Shown here piece after piece: positions 2,408-39,750 of a stretch of 64,000 nt of DNA. Every line of letters begins with the position of its first letter. The first letter of the stretch is position 1. The stretch is from a virus. The stretch lies in the IMG/VR virus record IMGVR_UViG_3300045988_122538. The stretch is one strand, 5' to 3'. The translations under genes and the position numbers were made by a program. The notes under the pieces were generated by a model that searched no databases, had not been told where the DNA came from, and worked only from the letters and a program-made list of their open reading frames with translations.

Positions 2408-2454
2408 CCTACTATAATATATGTACATTGGCAATAGTTGATGTATGATAACAG

Positions 2455-2493
2455 AAGCAGCTGATTACATTCACATGTATCAGCTGCTTTTTC
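2455..2493 (+). terminator. Intrinsic terminator after nrdD
   Basis: AAGCAGCTGAT (2455-2465) pairs with ATCAGCTGCTT (2479-2489), followed by a T-run. Confidence 0.7.
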
Positions 2494-2507
2494 TGTGTAT
2501 GAAGTAA

Positions 2508-29654: not shown

Positions 29655-30434
29655 TCAATAATTCATTTGACCTTTAACTAATCGGTCATGTAAAATATTC
29701 ATAGCCCTAGGCAACGCTGATTTAAGCGTCCAATAATCAATAGAGTATAGGTCTGATAATTCTCGCAAATCTCCATCAGATAATTTTGATTCGTTTGATA
29801 CCATCTCATGTATAAGTAACTCTTCTACACTGTTATAATTATCTGTCAAGTATCTAGATATGTCAGTATGCTGTGTATCAGGTGCTTCTATATACATTTC
29901 ATGATCAGCAAGGTCTGCCCAGTAAACAGCACCAAACATAGCTTTGAGACTATTCATTTCATCTGCGGGTAATTTAACATGTGCTAGATCTTCATACTTA
30001 ACTTGTCCCCAATGCTTTCCAAGCTGTTCCCCAGCTTTCATACATAATGAACGACGTAATGAGTATTTAACTGTATTCAATTCTCGTTCAATCATTTCAC
30101 CTAATCTCAAAGTGAAGAAGCTTGAAAACGACAGATCAGTGCGGTACTTCTTAGACCATCTGTACCACCACCAACACTTACAGAAGTTACATAATGCTGA
30201 TTGAAGTTTATCCTCATACTCAATAGATGGATTATTGATATATGTACGAGAAGCAACATATCCAAAAAATGAATAATTGAGTTTGATAACTTCATCTCTT
30301 ATGTCTAATCTGCTTTTGCGTTCTTCTTCATCCTGAGGTAGCGAATCATATAATTCAATAGTGCGTTTCTTTACATCAGAATACTGCTTATTGACTTCCA
30401 TAACTTTTGACCTACCTTTCAATAGATGATTCAA
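29655..30434 (-). CDS. Sigma-70-family-like transcription factor (only minus-strand gene)
   Basis: Region-2-like IRDEVIKLNYSFFGYVASRTY...EDKLQSALCNFCKCWWWYR...FSSFFTLRLGEMIEREL. Region-4-like LSDGDLRELSDLYSIDYWTLKSALPRAMNILHDRL. An alternative start MEVNK is at 30401, after AAAGGTAGG. Confidence 0.5.
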   Translation of the reverse strand: MNHLLKGRSKVMEVNKQYSDVKKRTIELYDSLPQDEEERKSRLDIRDEVIKLNYSFFGYVASRTYINNPSIEYEDKLQSALCNFCKCWWWYRWSKKYRTDLSFSSFFTLRLGEMIERELNTVKYSLRRSLCMKAGEQLGKHWGQVKYEDLAHVKLPADEMNSLKAMFGAVYWADLADHEMYIEAPDTQHTDISRYLTDNYNSVEELLIHEMVSNESKLSDGDLRELSDLYSIDYWTLKSALPRAMNILHDRLVKGQMNY

Positions 30435-30464
30435 TATATATATGTTATAATTATATTATATAAT

Positions 30465-30478
30465 ATCTTCGTGAAGAT
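30465..30478. promoter_or_regulatory. Perfect 6-2-6 palindrome ATCTTC-GT-GAAGAT in the leader/promoter of the minus-strand gene
   Basis: Read directly from the sequence. Operator-like geometry. Confidence 0.3.
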
Positions 30479-30498
30479 GTCAATATAATTCAGGTATT

Positions 30499-30508
30499 TT
30501 AACGATTC
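30499..30508 (-). promoter_or_regulatory. Minus-strand variant of the recurrent motif (GAATCGTTAA)
   Basis: The reverse complement of TTAACGATTC reads TTGAATCGTTAAAA. It lies about 65 nt upstream of the minus-strand start at 30434. Confidence 0.3.
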
Positions 30509-30522
30509 AATTTTGTACGACC

Positions 30523-30755
30523 AAAAACAACCAAAAACACCATAATTGGTATTTTGAAAAGTGGTGAAAACTGGTGTTTTCAAAAATAGTTAAAATAGCT
30601 ACTTTTTGACAAAAACCATTAAAAACGCCAGATTTGATTACAAAAGTGGTGAAAACGCCGGATTTCTAAATTTGCATATTTGAAGGTTTTGTTAAGTAAA
30701 AACAACCGAAAACACCATAATTGGTATTTTGAAAAGTGGTGAAAACGCCGGATTT
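30523..30755. repeat. Iteron array (candidate replication origin / initiator binding sites)
   Basis: A 49-bp unit AAAAACAACC(A/G)AAAACACCATAATTGGTATTTTGAAAAGTGGTGAAAAC occurs at 30523-30571 and 30698-30746 with one mismatch. The sub-unit AAAAGTGGTGAAAAC occurs three times (30557, 30642, 30732). AAAACGCC(G/A)GATTT occurs three times (30622, 30652, 30742). There is an inverted pair AAAACACCA / TGGTGTTTT (30534-42 / 30572-80). Confidence 0.8.
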
Positions 30756-30840
30756 GACCGCATTATATATAAACAAATATATAAATAGAATATATAAGAA
30801 TATGTAATATGTGTAAATATATGTAATTATAGAATCACAC
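30756..30840. other. Extremely AT-rich tract next to the iterons (possible DNA unwinding element)
   Basis: ATATATAAACAAATATATAAATAGAATATATAAGAATATGTAATATGTGTAAATATATGTAATTATAG, with ATGTAAT-like reiterations. Confidence 0.35.
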
Positions 30841-30930
30841 TCAAAATAATAAAATAGCTCTTTTTGCTGTTTTTGTTTTATTCTGAATCTGTGCGTCGAC
30901 CTCTATTTCAGATTGAACTACTAACAAGGT

Positions 30931-30941
30931 GATTCGTTATA
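30931..30941 (+). promoter_or_regulatory. Recurrent motif GATTCGTTATA
   Basis: Sits in the large non-coding region, 78 nt upstream of the consensus promoter at 31009. Confidence 0.4.
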
Positions 30942-31008
30942 TACTATGAGCCCCCACCACTCAGGTGAAATATGTTGAAAAAAAATATTGAGGAAATTCA
31001 AAAAATGC

Positions 31009-31037
31009 TTGACTTTTTATTCAATAGGGCTTATAAT
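31009..31037 (+). promoter_or_regulatory. Consensus sigma-A/sigma-70 promoter
   Basis: TTGACT (31009-14), a 17-nt spacer, then TATAAT (31032-37), followed by ATACATGTAG. Upstream AAAAATGCTTGACTTTTT is shared with the promoter at 39678. Confidence 0.7.
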
Positions 31038-31043
31038 ATACAT

Positions 31044-31195
31044 GTAGAATAAATTTGTTATCATTATTGCAGGTAATGATTTCGACTGTATAAGGCTAAC
31101 AAGGCCTGCAAACTTGTTAGCATAGAGCTTATTAAGGCCTGCAAACTTATGTAGCTCTTCATGACAGTCGAAATCATTGCCTGCAATTTTTTTTA
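31044..31195 (+). ncRNA. Candidate structured leader/sRNA: three-way junction closed by a 24-bp stem plus a U8 tract
   Basis: The outer stem is 31066-31089 with 31164-31187 (23 Watson-Crick pairs plus one G-U valid only in the + strand RNA). Hairpin 1 is 31095-31121 and hairpin 2 is 31124-31158. Both display the identical 11-nt loop GGCCUGCAAAC. T8 is at 31187-31194. The 5' end is inferred from the promoter. Confidence 0.5.
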
Positions 31196-31245
31196 TTTCG
31201 TCAAAAGATTATCTGGATTATAAACAAAGAGAAGGATGTGGTCAC

Positions 31246-32226
31246 ATGGATATGCAAAGTGCTGAAAAGGTAGCGGACAAGCTATTGACGTTTGTACAAT
31301 CTGTCGCCATGTCTGATTCTAAGTTATATGGTAAATCTAAACAGAGACTTCAAAGTATTGCAAATGTTTGTTCTCAAGTTGTAACAGCTGTTTCTGGGAT
31401 ATTGCAAACTGAAATACTTGAATCTGATCAACAAGAGTTTGAATCTAAACCTGATGTAGATATCTACGAACAAGTAGCATCTCTCAGTGCTGAGATAGAA
31501 AAACTCAAGGAATTTATACAGTTCCCTGCTTCTAATGAATGTGATCCTGTTGTTAATAATGAACTTGTTGAGGATGATTCTGTAGCGGAATCTAGTGATT
31601 CAGATATTGATGTTATGTCATCTAATGACAATGTTTCTGAAAATATTGATGATGCTAAATTATCACCCGACGAAATGAAATCAATTGTAAGTAAGTACGG
31701 TTGTGTGCTTAAAAATGCTGCTAATACTGATTGTGGTATACCTGCAGGTAACCAAGTAACAAACATTTTGTGGAAATGGTTCCAAGCCCGCATATTTACT
31801 AAATATAGTAATGCACCACCATTTCACTATAGCGTACATAGATTCAAAAGCATCATATATTCTTTTATTGTCTTATATGGCAAGCATTTTGAAGATGGTA
31901 CTGTTGAGCTATTTTTACGCTACTTTGAAGACTGGATTTCGTCACTCAGTACATCTCATGAGAGTAACAAATGGATAGCTCCTTATGATGTATATCAAAT
32001 AGAGAGAGCTGTAGATACAAATCATGCGAATCTTACAGCTGTTGTTCTGTATGATGTGTTAATGGATACAGTTCTAAAACCTCTTTTAGATAAGAAGTCA
32101 GACGGGTATTATCTATGCGATTCTGGAATATATGATATGGTCTATTCATCAAATTCATCATGTCTTGATAACTATACAAATTACAAGTATGACCCTAGCA
32201 TATTAGAATCGTTAAAACTTATGTAA
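31246..32226 (+). CDS. Hypothetical acidic protein (first gene of the replication module)
   Basis: ATG at 31246 chosen. The track start 31177 lies inside the terminator stem. No motif recognised. Confidence 0.55.
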   Translation: MDMQSAEKVADKLLTFVQSVAMSDSKLYGKSKQRLQSIANVCSQVVTAVSGILQTEILESDQQEFESKPDVDIYEQVASLSAEIEKLKEFIQFPASNECDPVVNNELVEDDSVAESSDSDIDVMSSNDNVSENIDDAKLSPDEMKSIVSKYGCVLKNAANTDCGIPAGNQVTNILWKWFQARIFTKYSNAPPFHYSVHRFKSIIYSFIVLYGKHFEDGTVELFLRYFEDWISSLSTSHESNKWIAPYDVYQIERAVDTNHANLTAVVLYDVLMDTVLKPLLDKKSDGYYLCDSGIYDMVYSSNSSCLDNYTNYKYDPSILESLKLM

Positions 32227-32246
32227 TCTAAAAGAAAGGAGATGTT

Positions 32247-33410
32247 TTGACCATGGTGAAATTTACGCAGTTACCTGATAAGCTTATTTATCCAGCACGT
32301 ATTAGAGCAAAGCTGTCAACATTACATTCTGATGTGATAACTTATGTAGTATCTAATTTCAAGAATACTGCTAAGTACAAGCGTCAAGTTGTTGATACAT
32401 TGAATACAATTTCTGTGTATATTAAAAACAATGATGCTTTACCTTCTGATTGGAGTGTTTCTAATCCATTGACCAATCTAGAGTTGTTGGATTCTAGCTT
32501 TTGTGAAGATACATTAGGTAACTTATGTATCAAAGTTAAGGATATAATTTGGGACGTTCAAGAGTCTGAAACAGATGAACAGATATCTACAGATACAGTT
32601 GTTACTGCAAAAACTTCATCCGAAGATACTGTAACTTCGTCTAAGGTTGTAAATGTCAAACCTAAACGTGATATAGGTGTTGTTGTATCTCCAACTCCTA
32701 AAGAAAATCTGTATATAAAGCCTCCGACCATTCCACAATTTGATGCGTCTAAACCTTGGTTACAGTCTCAATTAAATCAAAATGTATACACAATATATGA
32801 ATCTCTTCCTATCATACCTGTTAATCAGAGTCAGATATCTGTAACTACTGATGTTTCAAAAATGACTATCATGGATATGATGAAATTGTATCCTAATCAT
32901 TTTATTCGGACAAGAGCAGCAACTATGTATGAAAATCATAATGGTTTGACTCTTGATGATGACATTGGTATTATTTTGCCGATTGTAGGTTTCAGCCCGA
33001 CTCAGGTTAAAGATAACATTATCAAATATCCGCACATATACAAACTTACTCGATACATGAATAATAAATTCACTAGTTTTTATTCAAATATCGAGATTGA
33101 CGGTGAGTTACATGATACGCTTTCCATTTGGGATAGTTTACCTGATAGCAAGAAGATGCCTCGTAATTCAGAGTTCATAAAAGAGTATGTAGTTCGGAGA
33201 TATTTACTAGAACGTGATATTCTTGGAGTAGAGCATAAGTATCCGTTGTTTGGGACACTAGAACCGTTCTTAACATTATTCACAACATCTGATGATTATA
33301 TCCGACTTGGATATACAGATGTTACTGATATTGCAAAACAATGTGTGATATCTAGAGTAAGTTATAAGCGGTCAAGAAATCCAATACTAAGGATGGTGTA
33401 TAATGAATAA
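32247..33410 (+). CDS. Hypothetical protein (possible origin-binding/initiator, by position only)
   Basis: 387-aa ORF between the iteron region and the loader/helicase genes. RBS AAAGGAG upstream. TTG at 32247 or ATG at 32253. Confidence 0.5.
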   Translation: MTMVKFTQLPDKLIYPARIRAKLSTLHSDVITYVVSNFKNTAKYKRQVVDTLNTISVYIKNNDALPSDWSVSNPLTNLELLDSSFCEDTLGNLCIKVKDIIWDVQESETDEQISTDTVVTAKTSSEDTVTSSKVVNVKPKRDIGVVVSPTPKENLYIKPPTIPQFDASKPWLQSQLNQNVYTIYESLPIIPVNQSQISVTTDVSKMTIMDMMKLYPNHFIRTRAATMYENHNGLTLDDDIGIILPIVGFSPTQVKDNIIKYPHIYKLTRYMNNKFTSFYSNIEIDGELHDTLSIWDSLPDSKKMPRNSEFIKEYVVRRYLLERDILGVEHKYPLFGTLEPFLTLFTTSDDYIRLGYTDVTDIAKQCVISRVSYKRSRNPILRMVYNE

Positions 33411-33990
33411 CTGTATATTTACTGCTCATTGCACAGAACCTGTTTGTGATAAATCTTGTCCTATATTGTCAGAGACATCTTATTTGCTAGAACGAAATGG
33501 GTTATCATTTGATAATGCAGTATTCCATTCTTCTACTAAAGACATCAACAATGCTTTATATGCATTGCATAAATCAGATGGTAAATTAGCTACAGTTGTT
33601 TCTGACGATACAATTAGATCAAGTAATCTGCTTACATACTGTGCAATATGCGAAAATTGGCAAGGTAATAGATTACATTGTAATGTATATCATTTGAAGT
33701 TCTCTAATCATGTTGAAGCAATACAACGAAGTTGGTCAAATAAGAATACATCAGATTCGCTTGAATATGAACAAATATGGTCGTCTAGTGCTAAAATACT
33801 GATCATTTCTAATATAGATTATGTTCAATTCAAGGACTTTCAGTCACAGACATTATTGAATCTCATTCATAACCGTATGAATAATAACCTTACTACTATA
33901 GTAGTATCACCTAACCTGTCAGCTCTTATTGGTAATGGTTTGTTTTTCAGTAAACTTGTTAAGATACTAGATAAGGCGGTGATTAAGTGA
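33403..33990 (+). CDS. DnaC/DnaI-like helicase loader with a degenerate Walker A (tentative)
   Basis: AKILIISNIDYVQF...QTLLNLIHNRMNNNLTTIVVSPN mirrors the DnaC pattern LLIIDDLG...LF.LI..R....TIITSN. No GxxGxGKT is present. Sits immediately upstream of the DnaB-like helicase. Confidence 0.4.
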   Translation: MNNCIFTAHCTEPVCDKSCPILSETSYLLERNGLSFDNAVFHSSTKDINNALYALHKSDGKLATVVSDDTIRSSNLLTYCAICENWQGNRLHCNVYHLKFSNHVEAIQRSWSNKNTSDSLEYEQIWSSSAKILIISNIDYVQFKDFQSQTLLNLIHNRMNNNLTTIVVSPNLSALIGNGLFFSKLVKILDKAVIK

Positions 33991-39650: not shown

Positions 39651-39750
39651 AGAAACTATTAAATTTTGCAAAAATGCTTGACTTTTTCTCCAAAATCGTA
39701 TATAATAATATATGTAGGGACAAGACAATACCTACAACATATCAAAAAAT
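39651..39750 (+). promoter_or_regulatory. Conserved promoter-leader cassette A
   Basis: TTGACT (39678-83), 17 nt, TATAAT (39701-06). A 5'-proximal hairpin is formed by TGTAGG (39713-18) and CCTACA (39731-36), followed by ACATATCAAAA. Almost identical to 52668-52766. Confidence 0.7.

What the first reader, a model, noticed from the sequence alone, without database searches (positions are those of the whole stretch)
31044..31195. Promoter-proximal three-way-junction RNA with two identical 11-nt loops, a 24-bp closing stem and a U8 tract, in front of the replication genes
A perfect TTGACT-17-TATAAT promoter (31009-31037) fires directly into a large nested structure.
- Outer stem: 31066-31089 with 31164-31187. 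Its single non-Watson-Crick position is a G-U that works only in the + strand RNA; it would be C-A on the other strand.
- Inside are two hairpins, 31095-31121 and 31124-31158. Both present exactly the same loop, GGCCUGCAAAC.
- The structure is followed immediately by T8 (31187-31194), so it is also an intrinsic terminator.
- The octamer GCCTGCAA occurs three times: in loop 1 at 31104-11, in loop 2 at 31137-44 and in the 3' arm at 31179-86. Its complement TTGCAGG occurs once, in the 5' arm at 31067-73. The 5' arm could therefore pair with either loop instead of the terminator arm, which is the logic of an attenuator or antiterminator.
- The next gene starts at 31246 and heads the initiator/loader/helicase/primase operon.

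Identical displayed loops also suggest two binding sites for one protein or RNA. I do not recognise this as any named RNA family.
Basis: seen in the sequence. Interest (0 to 1): 0.75.

Follow-up and report, generated by a model that had tools for sequence, protein, structure and literature searches.

The report
Phage replication-operon leader RNA switch
A strong early promoter in an uncultivated ~125-kb phage makes a ~150-nt folded leader RNA that ends in a terminator just before the DNA-replication genes, and about 20 related phages keep the same fold plus a competing loop-loop pairing, so it looks like a new RNA family that gates transcription into those genes.

Summary
A TTGACT-17-TATAAT promoter (31009-31037) leads into a 24-bp stem (31066-89/31164-87) that encloses two hairpins sharing the 15-mer AAGGCCTGCAAACTT, followed by T8.

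It is a conserved plus-strand RNA:
- 13 variants from related phage contigs keep P1 and P2 (25 of 31 pairs changed on both sides; 0/500 shuffles reach this).
- P1 has 22 G·U against 1 A·C.
- A U-tract is almost always present.
- About 8 more distant relatives have the same architecture with unrelated sequence.

The key new result is a small 5' hairpin, P0 (31060-80). It displays L0 (UUGCAGG), which is perfectly complementary to the P2 loop L2 (CCUGCAA). This pair co-varies through at least 7 sequence classes, sometimes matching better than L0 matches the 3' arm. P0 plus the L0:L2 kiss excludes the terminator base.

Most lineages leave only about 10-25 nt between the U-tract and the Shine-Dalgarno, so gene 1 needs read-through.

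Best reading: a terminator/antiterminator attenuator. The effector is unknown and nothing was tested experimentally. There is no Rfam or GenBank-phage match. The second identical loop is lineage-specific, and the "initiator/loader" labels are unverified.

The parts
30931..30943 (+). GATTCGTTATATA box. Candidate phage-specific promoter motif upstream of the host-type promoter.
   Evidence: 17 matches with up to 2 mismatches in the window against 5.1 expected, mostly 30-65 nt upstream of + strand gene starts. The box is conserved near the element in relatives, but its position varies: upstream of the promoter, directly before P0, or after the terminator.
31009..31037 (+). Sigma-70-type early promoter TTGACT-17-TATAAT. 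Predicted transcription start is near 31044.
   Evidence: 11/12 match. The same ATGCTTGACTTTTT...GGGCTTATAAT..ATGTAG layout is conserved in relatives and at a second window promoter at 39674-39706.
31060..31080 (+). P0, a metastable 5' hairpin: AUCAUUA (31060-66) pairs with UAAUGAU (31074-80), and loop L0 is UUGCAGG (31067-73). It overlaps the bottom 15 nt of the P1 5' arm and so is the candidate antiterminator.
   Evidence: It is the MFE of nascent-length transcripts. It is 85.7% paired over 13 variants, with CG/UG/UA/GU exchanges. L0 lies wholly or largely (unpaired fraction 0.67-1.0) in a predicted 5' hairpin loop in 11 of 15 variants; in window, L071 and L073 the predicted P0 stem extends into L0, and L344 lacks P0.
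31066..31089 (+). P1 5' arm.
31095..31121 (+). P2 hairpin, 9-bp stem. Loop L2 is GCCUGCAAA (31104-31112), complementary to L0.
   Evidence: The L0:L2 helix is 96.7% paired across 13 variants and co-varies in more distant relatives.
31124..31158 (+). P3 hairpin carrying a second copy of the L2 loop (31137-31145). This is a lineage-specific duplication.
   Evidence: Relatives have an unrelated small P3 here.
31164..31187 (+). P1 3' arm, which forms the terminator stem.
31187..31194 (+). U-tract (T8). It is T6 in the 98%-identical contigs L001/L002.
   Evidence: U-rich tails are conserved in relatives.
31231..31248 (+). Shine-Dalgarno GAAGGA and the ATG of gene 1, the first gene of the replication module.
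   Evidence: In most relatives only about 10-25 nt separate the U-tract from the SD.
31246..32226 (+). Gene 1 (326 aa, unknown function). It is followed by 387-aa and 195-aa unknowns, then DnaB helicase, RNase H-like protein and primase.

Best explanation
The element is the 5' leader of the phage replication operon and works as a transcription attenuator.

1. Host RNA polymerase starts at about 31044.
2. The nascent RNA first folds P0, a small hairpin whose loop L0 is UUGCAGG. It then folds P2, and in this phage also P3, whose loops L2 are CCUGCAA.
3. L0 and L2 can form a 7-bp loop-loop kiss. P0 plus the kiss sequester the 14-15 nt of the 5' arm that must pair last, next to the U-tract.
4. When the 3' arm emerges it nucleates on the free upper part of the 5' arm and zips down. 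If it displaces P0 and L2 in time, the 24-bp P1 is completed against U8. Transcription stops, releasing a very stable ~150-nt three-way-junction RNA.
5. If it does not, polymerase reads on into gene 1, the helicase and the primase.

The balance therefore sets, or lets an unknown factor set, how much early transcription reaches the replication genes.

Shown here: the structure, the strand, conservation of the U-tract, the alternative pairing and its covariation, and the lack of room for another promoter in most lineages.

Inferred: that termination and read-through actually occur, that the kiss lowers termination, and what modulates it. Candidates for the modulator are a phage or host protein on L2/P0, the accumulated leader RNA acting in trans, or polymerase speed.
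For: Structure and strand:
- The MFE is -60.9 kcal/mol, z = -8.8.
- 13 sequence-related variants lie upstream of orthologous gene 1 (35-98% aa identity).
- P1 plus P2 are 91.5% paired, with 25 of 31 pairs changed on both sides, 0 of 500 shuffles as good, and slid controls at 31-44%.
- RNAalifold independently finds the same helices.
- P1 has 292 Watson-Crick pairs, 22 G·U and 1 A·C.
- The + strand is more stable than the - strand in 13 of 13 variants.
- The covariance model scores 112 bits on the + strand against 46 on the - strand.

Terminator:
- A U-rich tail follows P1 in nearly all variants. These include L078, L338, L342, L346 and L350, whose sequences are unrelated.

Alternative pairing:
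- P0 is the predicted fold of nascent transcripts.
- Over the 13 variants P0 is 85.7% paired and L0:L2 is 96.7% paired.
- L0/L2 classes seen: UUGCAGG/CCUGCAA, UAGCAG/CUGCUA, CUGGCGC/GCGCCAG, UUGCGGG/CCCGCAA, AGUGAGG/CCUCACU, GUGCGGC/GCCGCAC and GUCGUAG/CUACGAC.
- In 15 of 16 variants the best complement between the 5' arm and the interior is 6-10 nt. In most of them it sits in the P2 loop and within 6 nt of the arm start.
- In L080 and L334 two or three L0 nucleotides lie outside P1. In L338, L342 and L346, L0:L2 is perfect where L0:3'-arm has a mismatch or wobble. Selection therefore acts on L0:L2 itself.

Cis role:
- Only about 10-25 nt separate the U-tract from the SD in L075, L078, L080, L334, L338, L346 and L350, which leaves no room for a promoter.
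- There is no leader ORF.
- There is a single copy per genome, always at this position.
Against: - There are no transcript data, so promoter use, the 3' end and read-through are all predictions.
- P1 is about 50 kcal/mol more stable than any alternative fold. The antiterminator can therefore act only kinetically, and the size of that effect is unknown.
- A stem of 24-32 bp is far longer than a terminator needs.
- In L337, L342 and L349 a phage-type promoter-like box lies between the terminator and gene 1. In those phages the RNA could be a separate transcription unit.
- L350 has no recognisable L2, and L344 has a weak U-tract with its L0 in mid-arm.
- Several related phages lack the element altogether (L348, L352, L361, L079, L077), so it is dispensable for the module.
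- Homology of the 8 distant variants rests on position and architecture, not on sequence. The model finds only L334 and L344, and only weakly.
Confidence: 0.5

Rival explanations
1. It is a stand-alone small RNA gene running from promoter to terminator. The stable product displays L2 loops and acts in trans on another RNA, or titrates a protein. One version has it kissing the L0 loop of later nascent leaders, in the way short IsrK acts on its own read-through isoform or P4 CI RNA acts on seqA/seqC.
For: - It is a discrete unit with a strong promoter and a terminator.
- L2 is exposed in the final fold, and it is duplicated in this phage.
- In L337, L342 and L349 a phage-type promoter box follows the terminator, so gene 1 may have its own promoter there.
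- There is precedent for terminated leader isoforms acting in trans (PMC4825925).
Against: - No extended complement to L2 exists elsewhere in the 64-kb window. The other TTGCAGG sites are inside coding regions, away from start sites, and match at most 10 of 15 positions.
- L2 changes completely between lineages and always co-varies with L0 in the same molecule, so the conserved partner is in cis.
- Most lineages leave no room for a separate gene-1 promoter.
- Only half of the genome was available to search.
Confidence: 0.17
2. It is an origin-associated transcript. The RNA activates or primes replication at the adjacent iteron and AT-rich region, as proposed for the non-coding PE1-T transcript in the ori of lactococcal phage c2, or for ColE1 RNA II.
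For: - The element lies 180-500 bp from direct repeats (30523-30757) and an AT-rich block (30760-30830). That layout is conserved in relatives.
- It lies between divergent early promoters.
- An RNase H-like gene sits in the downstream module.
- For the c2 precedent, both the length and the structure of the ori transcript matter (PMC7150918).
Against: - Relatives L348, L352 and L361 keep the AT-rich and boxed intergenic region but lack the element.
- The phage encodes its own primase and helicase.
- The AT-rich block lies upstream of the promoter, not in the transcribed part.
- This reading does not explain the L0:L2 covariation or the U-tract.
- There is no DNA similarity to any GenBank phage.
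Confidence: 0.1
3. It is mainly an RNase III processing or stability element. The 22-32-bp near-perfect duplex would be cleaved to detach the leader and set the 5' end and half-life of the replication mRNA, as happens at T7 early-mRNA and lambda N-leader sites. This could coexist with attenuation.
For: P1 is 22-32 bp in every variant, with at most 2 mismatches. That is about two helical turns or more and much longer than intrinsic terminators need. The RNase III substrate length requirement is from general knowledge.
Against: - This reading does not explain P0, the L0:L2 covariation or the conserved U-tract.
- No cleavage data exist.
- The host, and therefore its RNase III specificity, is unknown.
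Confidence: 0.1
4. It is a DNA-level element. The palindrome would be a protein-binding site, a cruciform or a single-strand initiation signal of the origin, and the RNA fold would be incidental.
For: The long inverted repeat sits next to origin-like repeats, and the sequence is 100% identical in the closest relatives.
Against: - P1 has 22 G·U against 1 A·C, always favouring the + strand.
- The arms turn over completely in sequence while pairing is preserved.
- The U-tract is on one side only.
- The inner hairpins and loop-loop complementarity are conserved, which a duplex-DNA site would not need.
- A + strand ssDNA hairpin is not formally excluded by wobble asymmetry alone.
Confidence: 0.03

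Closest known systems
Terminator/antiterminator leaders such as the RAT hairpin of the BglG/LicT/SacY system, and riboswitch expression platforms
   Same: A hairpin (P0) overlaps the 5' half of an intrinsic terminator stem in a promoter-proximal leader. Whichever structure forms decides between stop and read-through.
   Different: - No bound protein or ligand is known here.
- The antiterminator hairpin is apparently stabilised by a loop-loop kiss with a second hairpin inside the terminator's own interior.
- The terminator stem is 24-32 bp and closes a three-way junction.
- There is no sequence or Rfam match.
Antisense-RNA-driven attenuation of plasmid rep genes (pT181, pIP501, pAMbeta1), and ColE1 RNA I/RNA II or R1 CopA/CopT kissing complexes
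   Same: A 6-8-nt loop-loop kiss decides the folding pathway of a nascent leader upstream of replication genes. The output is termination versus read-through.
   Different: - In the plasmids the kissing partner is a separate counter-transcript. Here both loops are on the same sense RNA.
- No conserved minus-strand promoter is present. The one 10/12 match at 31245->31217 is not kept in relatives (sequences).
Phage P4 CI RNA (seqA/seqB/seqC), P1/P7 c4 RNA and Gifsy-1 IsrK
   Same: A phage leader contains a hairpin whose exposed sequence is complementary to another segment of the same transcript. It controls premature termination ahead of replication or late genes, and terminated and read-through isoforms coexist (PMC4825925).
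   Different: - In P4 the processed RNA pairs with segments both upstream and downstream and promotes termination. Here L2 pairs with the upstream L0 only and has the same sense as the 3' arm.
- Rfam has no match for this region at E up to 10; C4/CI or IsrK-type families, if held in the library, did not hit.
- The organism group is different.
Lactococcus phage c2 (Ceduovirus) ori transcript PE1-T
   Same: A non-coding, structured transcript from the first early promoter, in the intergenic region that holds the origin (PMC7150918).
   Different: - There is no sequence similarity.
- The c2 ori functions without phage proteins and the RNA is thought to act at the DNA.
- Here the RNA sits directly in front of an SD and gene, and it is absent from some relatives that keep the origin-like region.
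hok mRNA fold-back (metastable 5' hairpins replaced by long-range 5'-3' pairing)
   Same: A 5' hairpin forms during transcription. It is later replaced by a long helix joining the 5' and 3' ends of the RNA.
   Different: In hok this controls translation and antisense access of a toxin mRNA. Here the long helix is a terminator ahead of an operon.

Membership tests
Intrinsic (Rho-independent) terminator | A stable stem immediately followed by a U-tract on the transcribed strand. | tested here: met
   A 24-bp stem is followed by T8. U-rich tails follow P1 in nearly all relatives.
Intrinsic (Rho-independent) terminator | A simple hairpin with a short loop. | tested here: not met
   The interior is a 74-nt two-hairpin junction, and the generic scan (loop 3-8) does not call the site. 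Branched terminators are known from general knowledge, so this does not exclude function.
Intrinsic (Rho-independent) terminator | Transcripts actually end at the U-tract. | not testable with these tools
   This needs Term-seq, 3' RACE or in vitro transcription.
Transcription attenuator (terminator/antiterminator leader) | A mutually exclusive alternative pairing that involves the terminator's 5' arm. | tested here: met
   P0 is 85.7% paired and L0:L2 is 96.7% paired over 13 variants. L0:L2 co-varies in at least 7 sequence classes.
Transcription attenuator (terminator/antiterminator leader) | The element lies between the promoter and the regulated gene, with no promoter in between. | tested here: inconclusive
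   - Met in most lineages, where the U-tract-to-SD distance is about 10-25 nt.
- In the window the gap is 36 nt to the SD and holds a degenerate TTTCGTCAAAAG box.
- In L337, L342 and L349 a clear phage-type box intervenes.
Transcription attenuator (terminator/antiterminator leader) | A signal (protein, RNA, metabolite or ribosome) that shifts the balance. | not testable with these tools
   There is no leader peptide ORF and no riboswitch match. The effector is unknown.
Any Rfam 15 family (whichever riboswitch, phage-leader, 6S or Y-RNA families the library holds) | A covariance-model match at or near the gathering score. | tested here: not met
   There are 0 hits at gathering score in the whole window. 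At E up to 10 on 30400-31300, the only hit overlapping the element is BTnc060 on the - strand, at 19 bits against a 229-bit cutoff.
Antisense-controlled rep attenuators (pT181 type) | A counter-transcript promoter on the opposite strand within the leader. | tested here: not met
   The only - strand candidate (31245->31217, 10/12) overlaps the SD and start codon and is not conserved in L067, L069, L070 or L071. There is no A-run upstream of P1 that could terminate an antisense RNA.
Phage c2-type ori transcript | The non-coding early transcript is required for origin function. | not testable with these tools
   Only the location is similar. There is no sequence similarity to GenBank phages.
RNase III substrate | About 20 bp or more of near-perfect dsRNA. 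| tested here: met
   P1 is 22-32 bp with 0-2 mismatches in all variants. Cleavage itself was not testable.

The most novel reading that the evidence does not exclude
The leader is an RNA-only timer for phage DNA replication. Early on nearly all transcripts terminate, and the stable ~150-nt product accumulates with its L2 loops exposed (two of them in this phage). Once abundant, it kisses the L0 loop of newly made leaders in trans and locks the antiterminator P0. That switches host polymerase through into the helicase/primase operon. This would be a self-titrating, sense-RNA feed-forward switch with no protein effector, and possibly coupled to the adjacent origin.
Probability: 0.12. Interest if true: 0.85.

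Novelty: new variant of a known kind. Interest (0 to 1): 0.62.

Why it matters
If the model holds, this is an undescribed family of structured phage leader RNAs. An intramolecular kissing-loop complex would compete with an unusually long, branched terminator to gate early transcription into replication genes.

The family offers a natural series of orthogonal L0/L2 pairs: at least 7 sequence classes on the same scaffold. That makes it an attractive system for studying co-transcriptional folding and strand displacement at terminators, and for designing orthogonal transcriptional switches.

It also marks the regulatory and origin region of a clade of uncultivated 95-155-kb phages whose replication-module genes are otherwise unannotatable.

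Tried and rejected
- Rfam at gathering score on the whole window and at E up to 10 on 30400-31300 gave nothing relevant.
- blastn of 30800-31300 against GenBank phages gave no match. tblastn of the helicase gave at most 29% identity, so there is no cultured relative.
- An exact 15-mer scan of IMG/VR gave 64 stretches. All are single chance copies except the two near-identical contigs.
- A 20-base gapped pattern was too loose. Filtering for arm complementarity kept only contigs already known.
- A strict two-arm pattern found 6 IMG/VR contigs, all in the same context. An L078-type pattern found none.
- A covariance-model search for extra copies found one per genome. The weak hit at window 2448-2497 is an ordinary terminator after nrdD.
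- A search for trans targets of L2 in the window found none.
- Minus-strand promoter or antisense RNA: not conserved (sequences).
- Leader peptide: none.
- I considered and dropped tRNA anticodon-loop mimicry, a CRISPR-repeat mimic (Racr) and a retron ncRNA. L2 and the P2 stem change freely between lineages, the repeat matches nothing, and no reverse transcriptase is nearby.
- Linkage to the divergent 259-aa gene is not exclusive. It is also present in L348 and L355, which lack the element.
- Gene 1, gene 2, the 195-aa protein and the 259-aa protein have no PDB sequence hits. The AlphaFold model of gene 1 (pLDDT 75.6, helical C-terminal domain above 90) has no Foldseek PDB match at E below 0.8.

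Full report
**1. The observation**

- The promoter is TTGACT (31009-14), 17 nt, TATAAT (31032-37), scoring 11/12.
- A 24-nt inverted repeat joins 31066-89 with 31164-87. Its one non-Watson-Crick position is U·G on the + strand (I1).
- The two inner hairpins are 31095-31121 and 31124-31158.
- They share the 15-mer AAGGCCTGCAAACTT.
- GCCTGCAA occurs three times here, and 5 times in the window against 1.0 expected.
- TTGCAGG is at 31067-73, T8 at 31187-94, and the SD and ATG at 31231-48.

As RNA, the + strand folds into the described three-way junction. The energy is -60.9 kcal/mol against -30.0 ± 3.5 for shuffles, z = -8.8. It is the longest inverted repeat with arms up to 250 nt apart in the 64-kb window. 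The predicted loops are 9 nt closed by a G-C pair.

**2. Context**

The element lies in an 810-bp intergenic region between divergent genes.

To the left, a perfect minus-strand promoter (30483->30455) drives a conserved 259-aa protein. Between that promoter and the element are:
- 49-nt and 16-nt direct repeats (30523-30757);
- an AT-rich block (30760-30830);
- a GATTCGTTATATA box (30931). This box recurs before many + strand genes, with 17 hits against 5.1 expected.

To the right are three ORFs with no Pfam, PHROG or PDB match. After them come a DnaB-type helicase, an RNase H-like protein, a Toprim primase, a dCMP deaminase-like protein and a family-A DNA polymerase.

The phage has no close cultured relative. 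The helicase is at most 29% identical to any GenBank phage, and the DNA has no match. Near-identical IMG/VR contigs, one of 125.5 kb, carry the element unchanged apart from T6 in place of T8.

**3. Relatives with related sequence**

Homologues of gene 1 (35-98% identity) were traced to their contigs. Thirteen distinct variants of the element were extracted. Each lies directly upstream of gene 1, usually behind the same TTGACTTTTT...GGGCTTATAAT promoter. All of them fold as:
- a long P1 of 22-32 bp;
- a P2 hairpin with a 9-nt loop;
- a variable P3;
- a U-rich tail.

Counts on the MAFFT alignment A3:
- P1 plus P2 are 91.5% paired.
- 25 of 31 pairs show changes on both sides.
- 0 of 500 column shuffles reach any of the five measures.
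- Slid controls give 31-44% pairing.

RNAalifold predicts the same helices without guidance.

**4. RNA or DNA, and which strand**

- Within P1 there are 292 Watson-Crick pairs, 22 G·U and one A·C. A duplex-DNA palindrome would collect both kinds equally.
- The + strand fold is more stable than the - strand fold in 13 of 13 variants, by 1-19 kcal/mol.
- The covariance model R1 scores 112 bits on the + strand against 46 on the - strand.
- The U-tract lies on one side only.

I take a + strand RNA as established at the level comparative analysis allows.

**5.

The 7 nt just upstream of P1 (AUCAUUA, 31060-66) pair with UAAUGAU (31074-80). This forms a small hairpin, P0, whose loop is UUGCAGG (L0).
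- P0 is the predicted fold of every nascent transcript shorter than about 125 nt.
- Those 7 nt are a conserved island in an otherwise variable leader.
- P0 is 85.7% paired across the 13 variants, with UA/UG/CG/GU exchanges at one position.
- L0 is complementary to the P2 loop L2. That 7-bp helix is 96.7% paired.

P0 plus L0:L2 occupy exactly the lower 14-15 nt of the P1 5' arm. That part must pair last, next to the U-tract.

**6. Distant relatives settle the question**

An alignment of the better-conserved gene 2 found 33 IMG/VR loci. In L334, L337, L338-341, L342, L344, L346/347, L349 and L350/351, a stem of 19-32 bp lies at the same place. It encloses 37-145 nt, and its sequence is unrelated to the window's. 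Gene 2 in these loci is 42-56% identical to the window's. Most of these variants again have a sigma-70-type promoter, a U-rich tail, a 5' hairpin presenting L0, and a first inner hairpin whose loop is the exact complement of L0.

| Variant(s) | L0 | L2 |
|---|---|---|
| window group | UUGCAGG | CCUGCAA |
| L074 | UAGCAG | CUGCUA |
| L078 | CUGGCGC | GCGCCAG |
| L334 | UUGCGGG | CCCGCAA |
| L337 | AGUGAGG | CCUCACU |
| L338, L342, L349 | (A)GUGCGGC | GCCGCAC(U) |
| L346 | GGUCGUAGC | GCUACGACC |

In 15 of 16 variants the longest complement between the 5' arm and the interior is 6-10 nt. In most of them it falls in the P2 loop and within 6 nt of the start of the arm.

Per-variant shuffle frequencies are modest, from 0.001 to 0.3. 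The placement repeats across at least 7 independent sequence classes. My own Fisher combination of the frequencies gives roughly 2e-5, before counting the positional coincidence.

L0:L2 is not a by-product of L2 resembling the 3' arm. In L080 and L334, two or three L0 nucleotides lie outside P1. In L338, L342 and L346, L0:L2 is perfect where L0:3'-arm has a mismatch or wobble.

L0 sits wholly or largely in a predicted 5' hairpin loop in 11 of 15 variants. In window, L071 and L073 the predicted P0 stem runs into L0, leaving a 3-nt loop, and L344 is the exception.

L350 has no L2, and L344 has a weak tail.

**7. Cis or trans**

In L075, L078, L080, L334, L338, L346 and L350, only about 10-25 nt separate the U-tract from the Shine-Dalgarno. 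Gene 1 can only be transcribed by reading through P1 in those phages. This is the strongest argument that the terminator is leaky or regulated, which is to say an attenuator.

Points against a purely cis role:
- L337, L342 and L349 have a phage-type box after the terminator.
- The window has a degenerate TTTCGTCAAAAG there.

Other findings:
- No trans target of L2 is visible in the window.
- There is one copy per genome.
- Several relatives lack the element while keeping the origin-like region.

**8. Mechanism proposed**

Co-transcriptional order:
1. P0 forms.
2. P2 forms.
3. L0 and L2 kiss, with duplex energy of about -6 to -16 kcal/mol.
4. The 3' arm nucleates on the free upper 5' arm and must displace P0 and L2 to complete the stem at the U-tract.

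P1 always wins thermodynamically, so the alternative can act only as a kinetic block that lowers or tunes termination. Any factor that stabilises or blocks the kiss would then regulate entry into the replication operon.

The second L2 copy in this phage would raise the chance of a kiss, or the valency of the released RNA. All of this is inference. The structures and their covariation are what has been shown.

**9. Comparison with known systems**

There is no Rfam family for it, and a full-text search found no paper combining a kissing loop, an antiterminator and a phage leader in this way.

In function it is closest to:
- RAT-type antiterminator leaders;
- plasmid rep attenuators driven by kissing antisense RNAs;
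- the P4 CI, P1 c4 and IsrK leaders.

By location it resembles the c2 ori transcript.

It differs from all of them in two ways. Both kissing loops sit on one sense RNA, and the terminator stem closes a 24-32-bp three-way junction.

I therefore rate it a new variant of a known kind, the terminator/antiterminator leader, and a new RNA family.

**10. Verdict**

| Claim | My estimate |
|---|---|
| The structure is a real, conserved + strand RNA | about 0.9 |
| It terminates transcription at least partly | about 0.8 |
| L0:L2/P0 alternative pairing is under selection | about 0.85 |
| It is an attenuator gating the replication operon | about 0.5 |

The rivals, in order of weight, are a trans-acting small RNA, an origin transcript, an RNase III element and a DNA site.

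Noticed in passing
window 30523-30830: The stretch looks like an origin of replication. It has three 49-nt direct repeats (30523, 30608, 30698) and three AAAACGCCGGATTTGA-like 16-mers (30622, 30652, 30742). An AT-rich block follows, starting at CCGCATTATATATAA (about 30757-30830). The same repeats, then ..CGCATTATATATAA, then an AT-rich block recur in L067, L069, L070, L071, L074, L075 and L076. This is a candidate iteron-plus-unwinding-element origin.
   Followed up: partly
window 2508, 22407, 25457, 26905, 28539, 30931, 46405, 51523 (+ strand): A GATTCGTTATRTA box occurs 17 times with up to 2 mismatches, against 5.1 expected. Most copies lie 30-65 nt upstream of + strand start codons, and one follows an ordinary terminator at 2448-2497. 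It is probably a phage-specific (middle or late?) promoter motif. Its position relative to the leader RNA differs between relatives.
   Followed up: partly
window 39674-39706: A second early promoter shares the extended consensus of the one at 31005-31047: AAAAATGCTTGACTTTTT-N-TATAAT, with ATGTAG at the start site. It is followed by only a small hairpin and no long stem.
   Followed up: partly
window 29655-30483 (- strand): A perfect TTGACA-17-TATAAT promoter (30483->30455) drives a 259-aa protein. That protein is better conserved among relatives (54-91% identity over the aligned part) than gene 1, yet it has no significant Pfam, PHROG or PDB match. It could be the phage's transcription factor.
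   Followed up: partly
L069 777-1310; L076 1-1892; L078 1206-1718: HNH/NUMOD4 homing-endonuclease genes have been inserted into this same divergent intergenic region in some relatives. In L076 there is also an IS605 OrfB/TnpB-like gene.
   Followed up: no
L001 position 1 = window ~30446: The 125.5-kb IMG/VR contig 3300045988_101827 ends inside this repeat-rich intergenic region. This is either an assembly break at the repeats or a genome end.
   Followed up: no
L337, L342, L346, L349 (interior just after P2): The distant variants share a single-stranded junction motif, roughly CACRGTTYCAATTTTAAGG. It follows P2 even though their arm sequences are unrelated. It could be a tertiary contact or a protein-binding site. 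It is not evident in the window's group.
   Followed up: no
window 31246-33990: The three genes between the leader and the helicase (326, 387 and 195 aa) have no detectable family. The AlphaFold model of the 326-aa protein has a confident all-helical C-terminal domain (residues ~140-326, pLDDT above 90) with no PDB fold match.
   Followed up: yes
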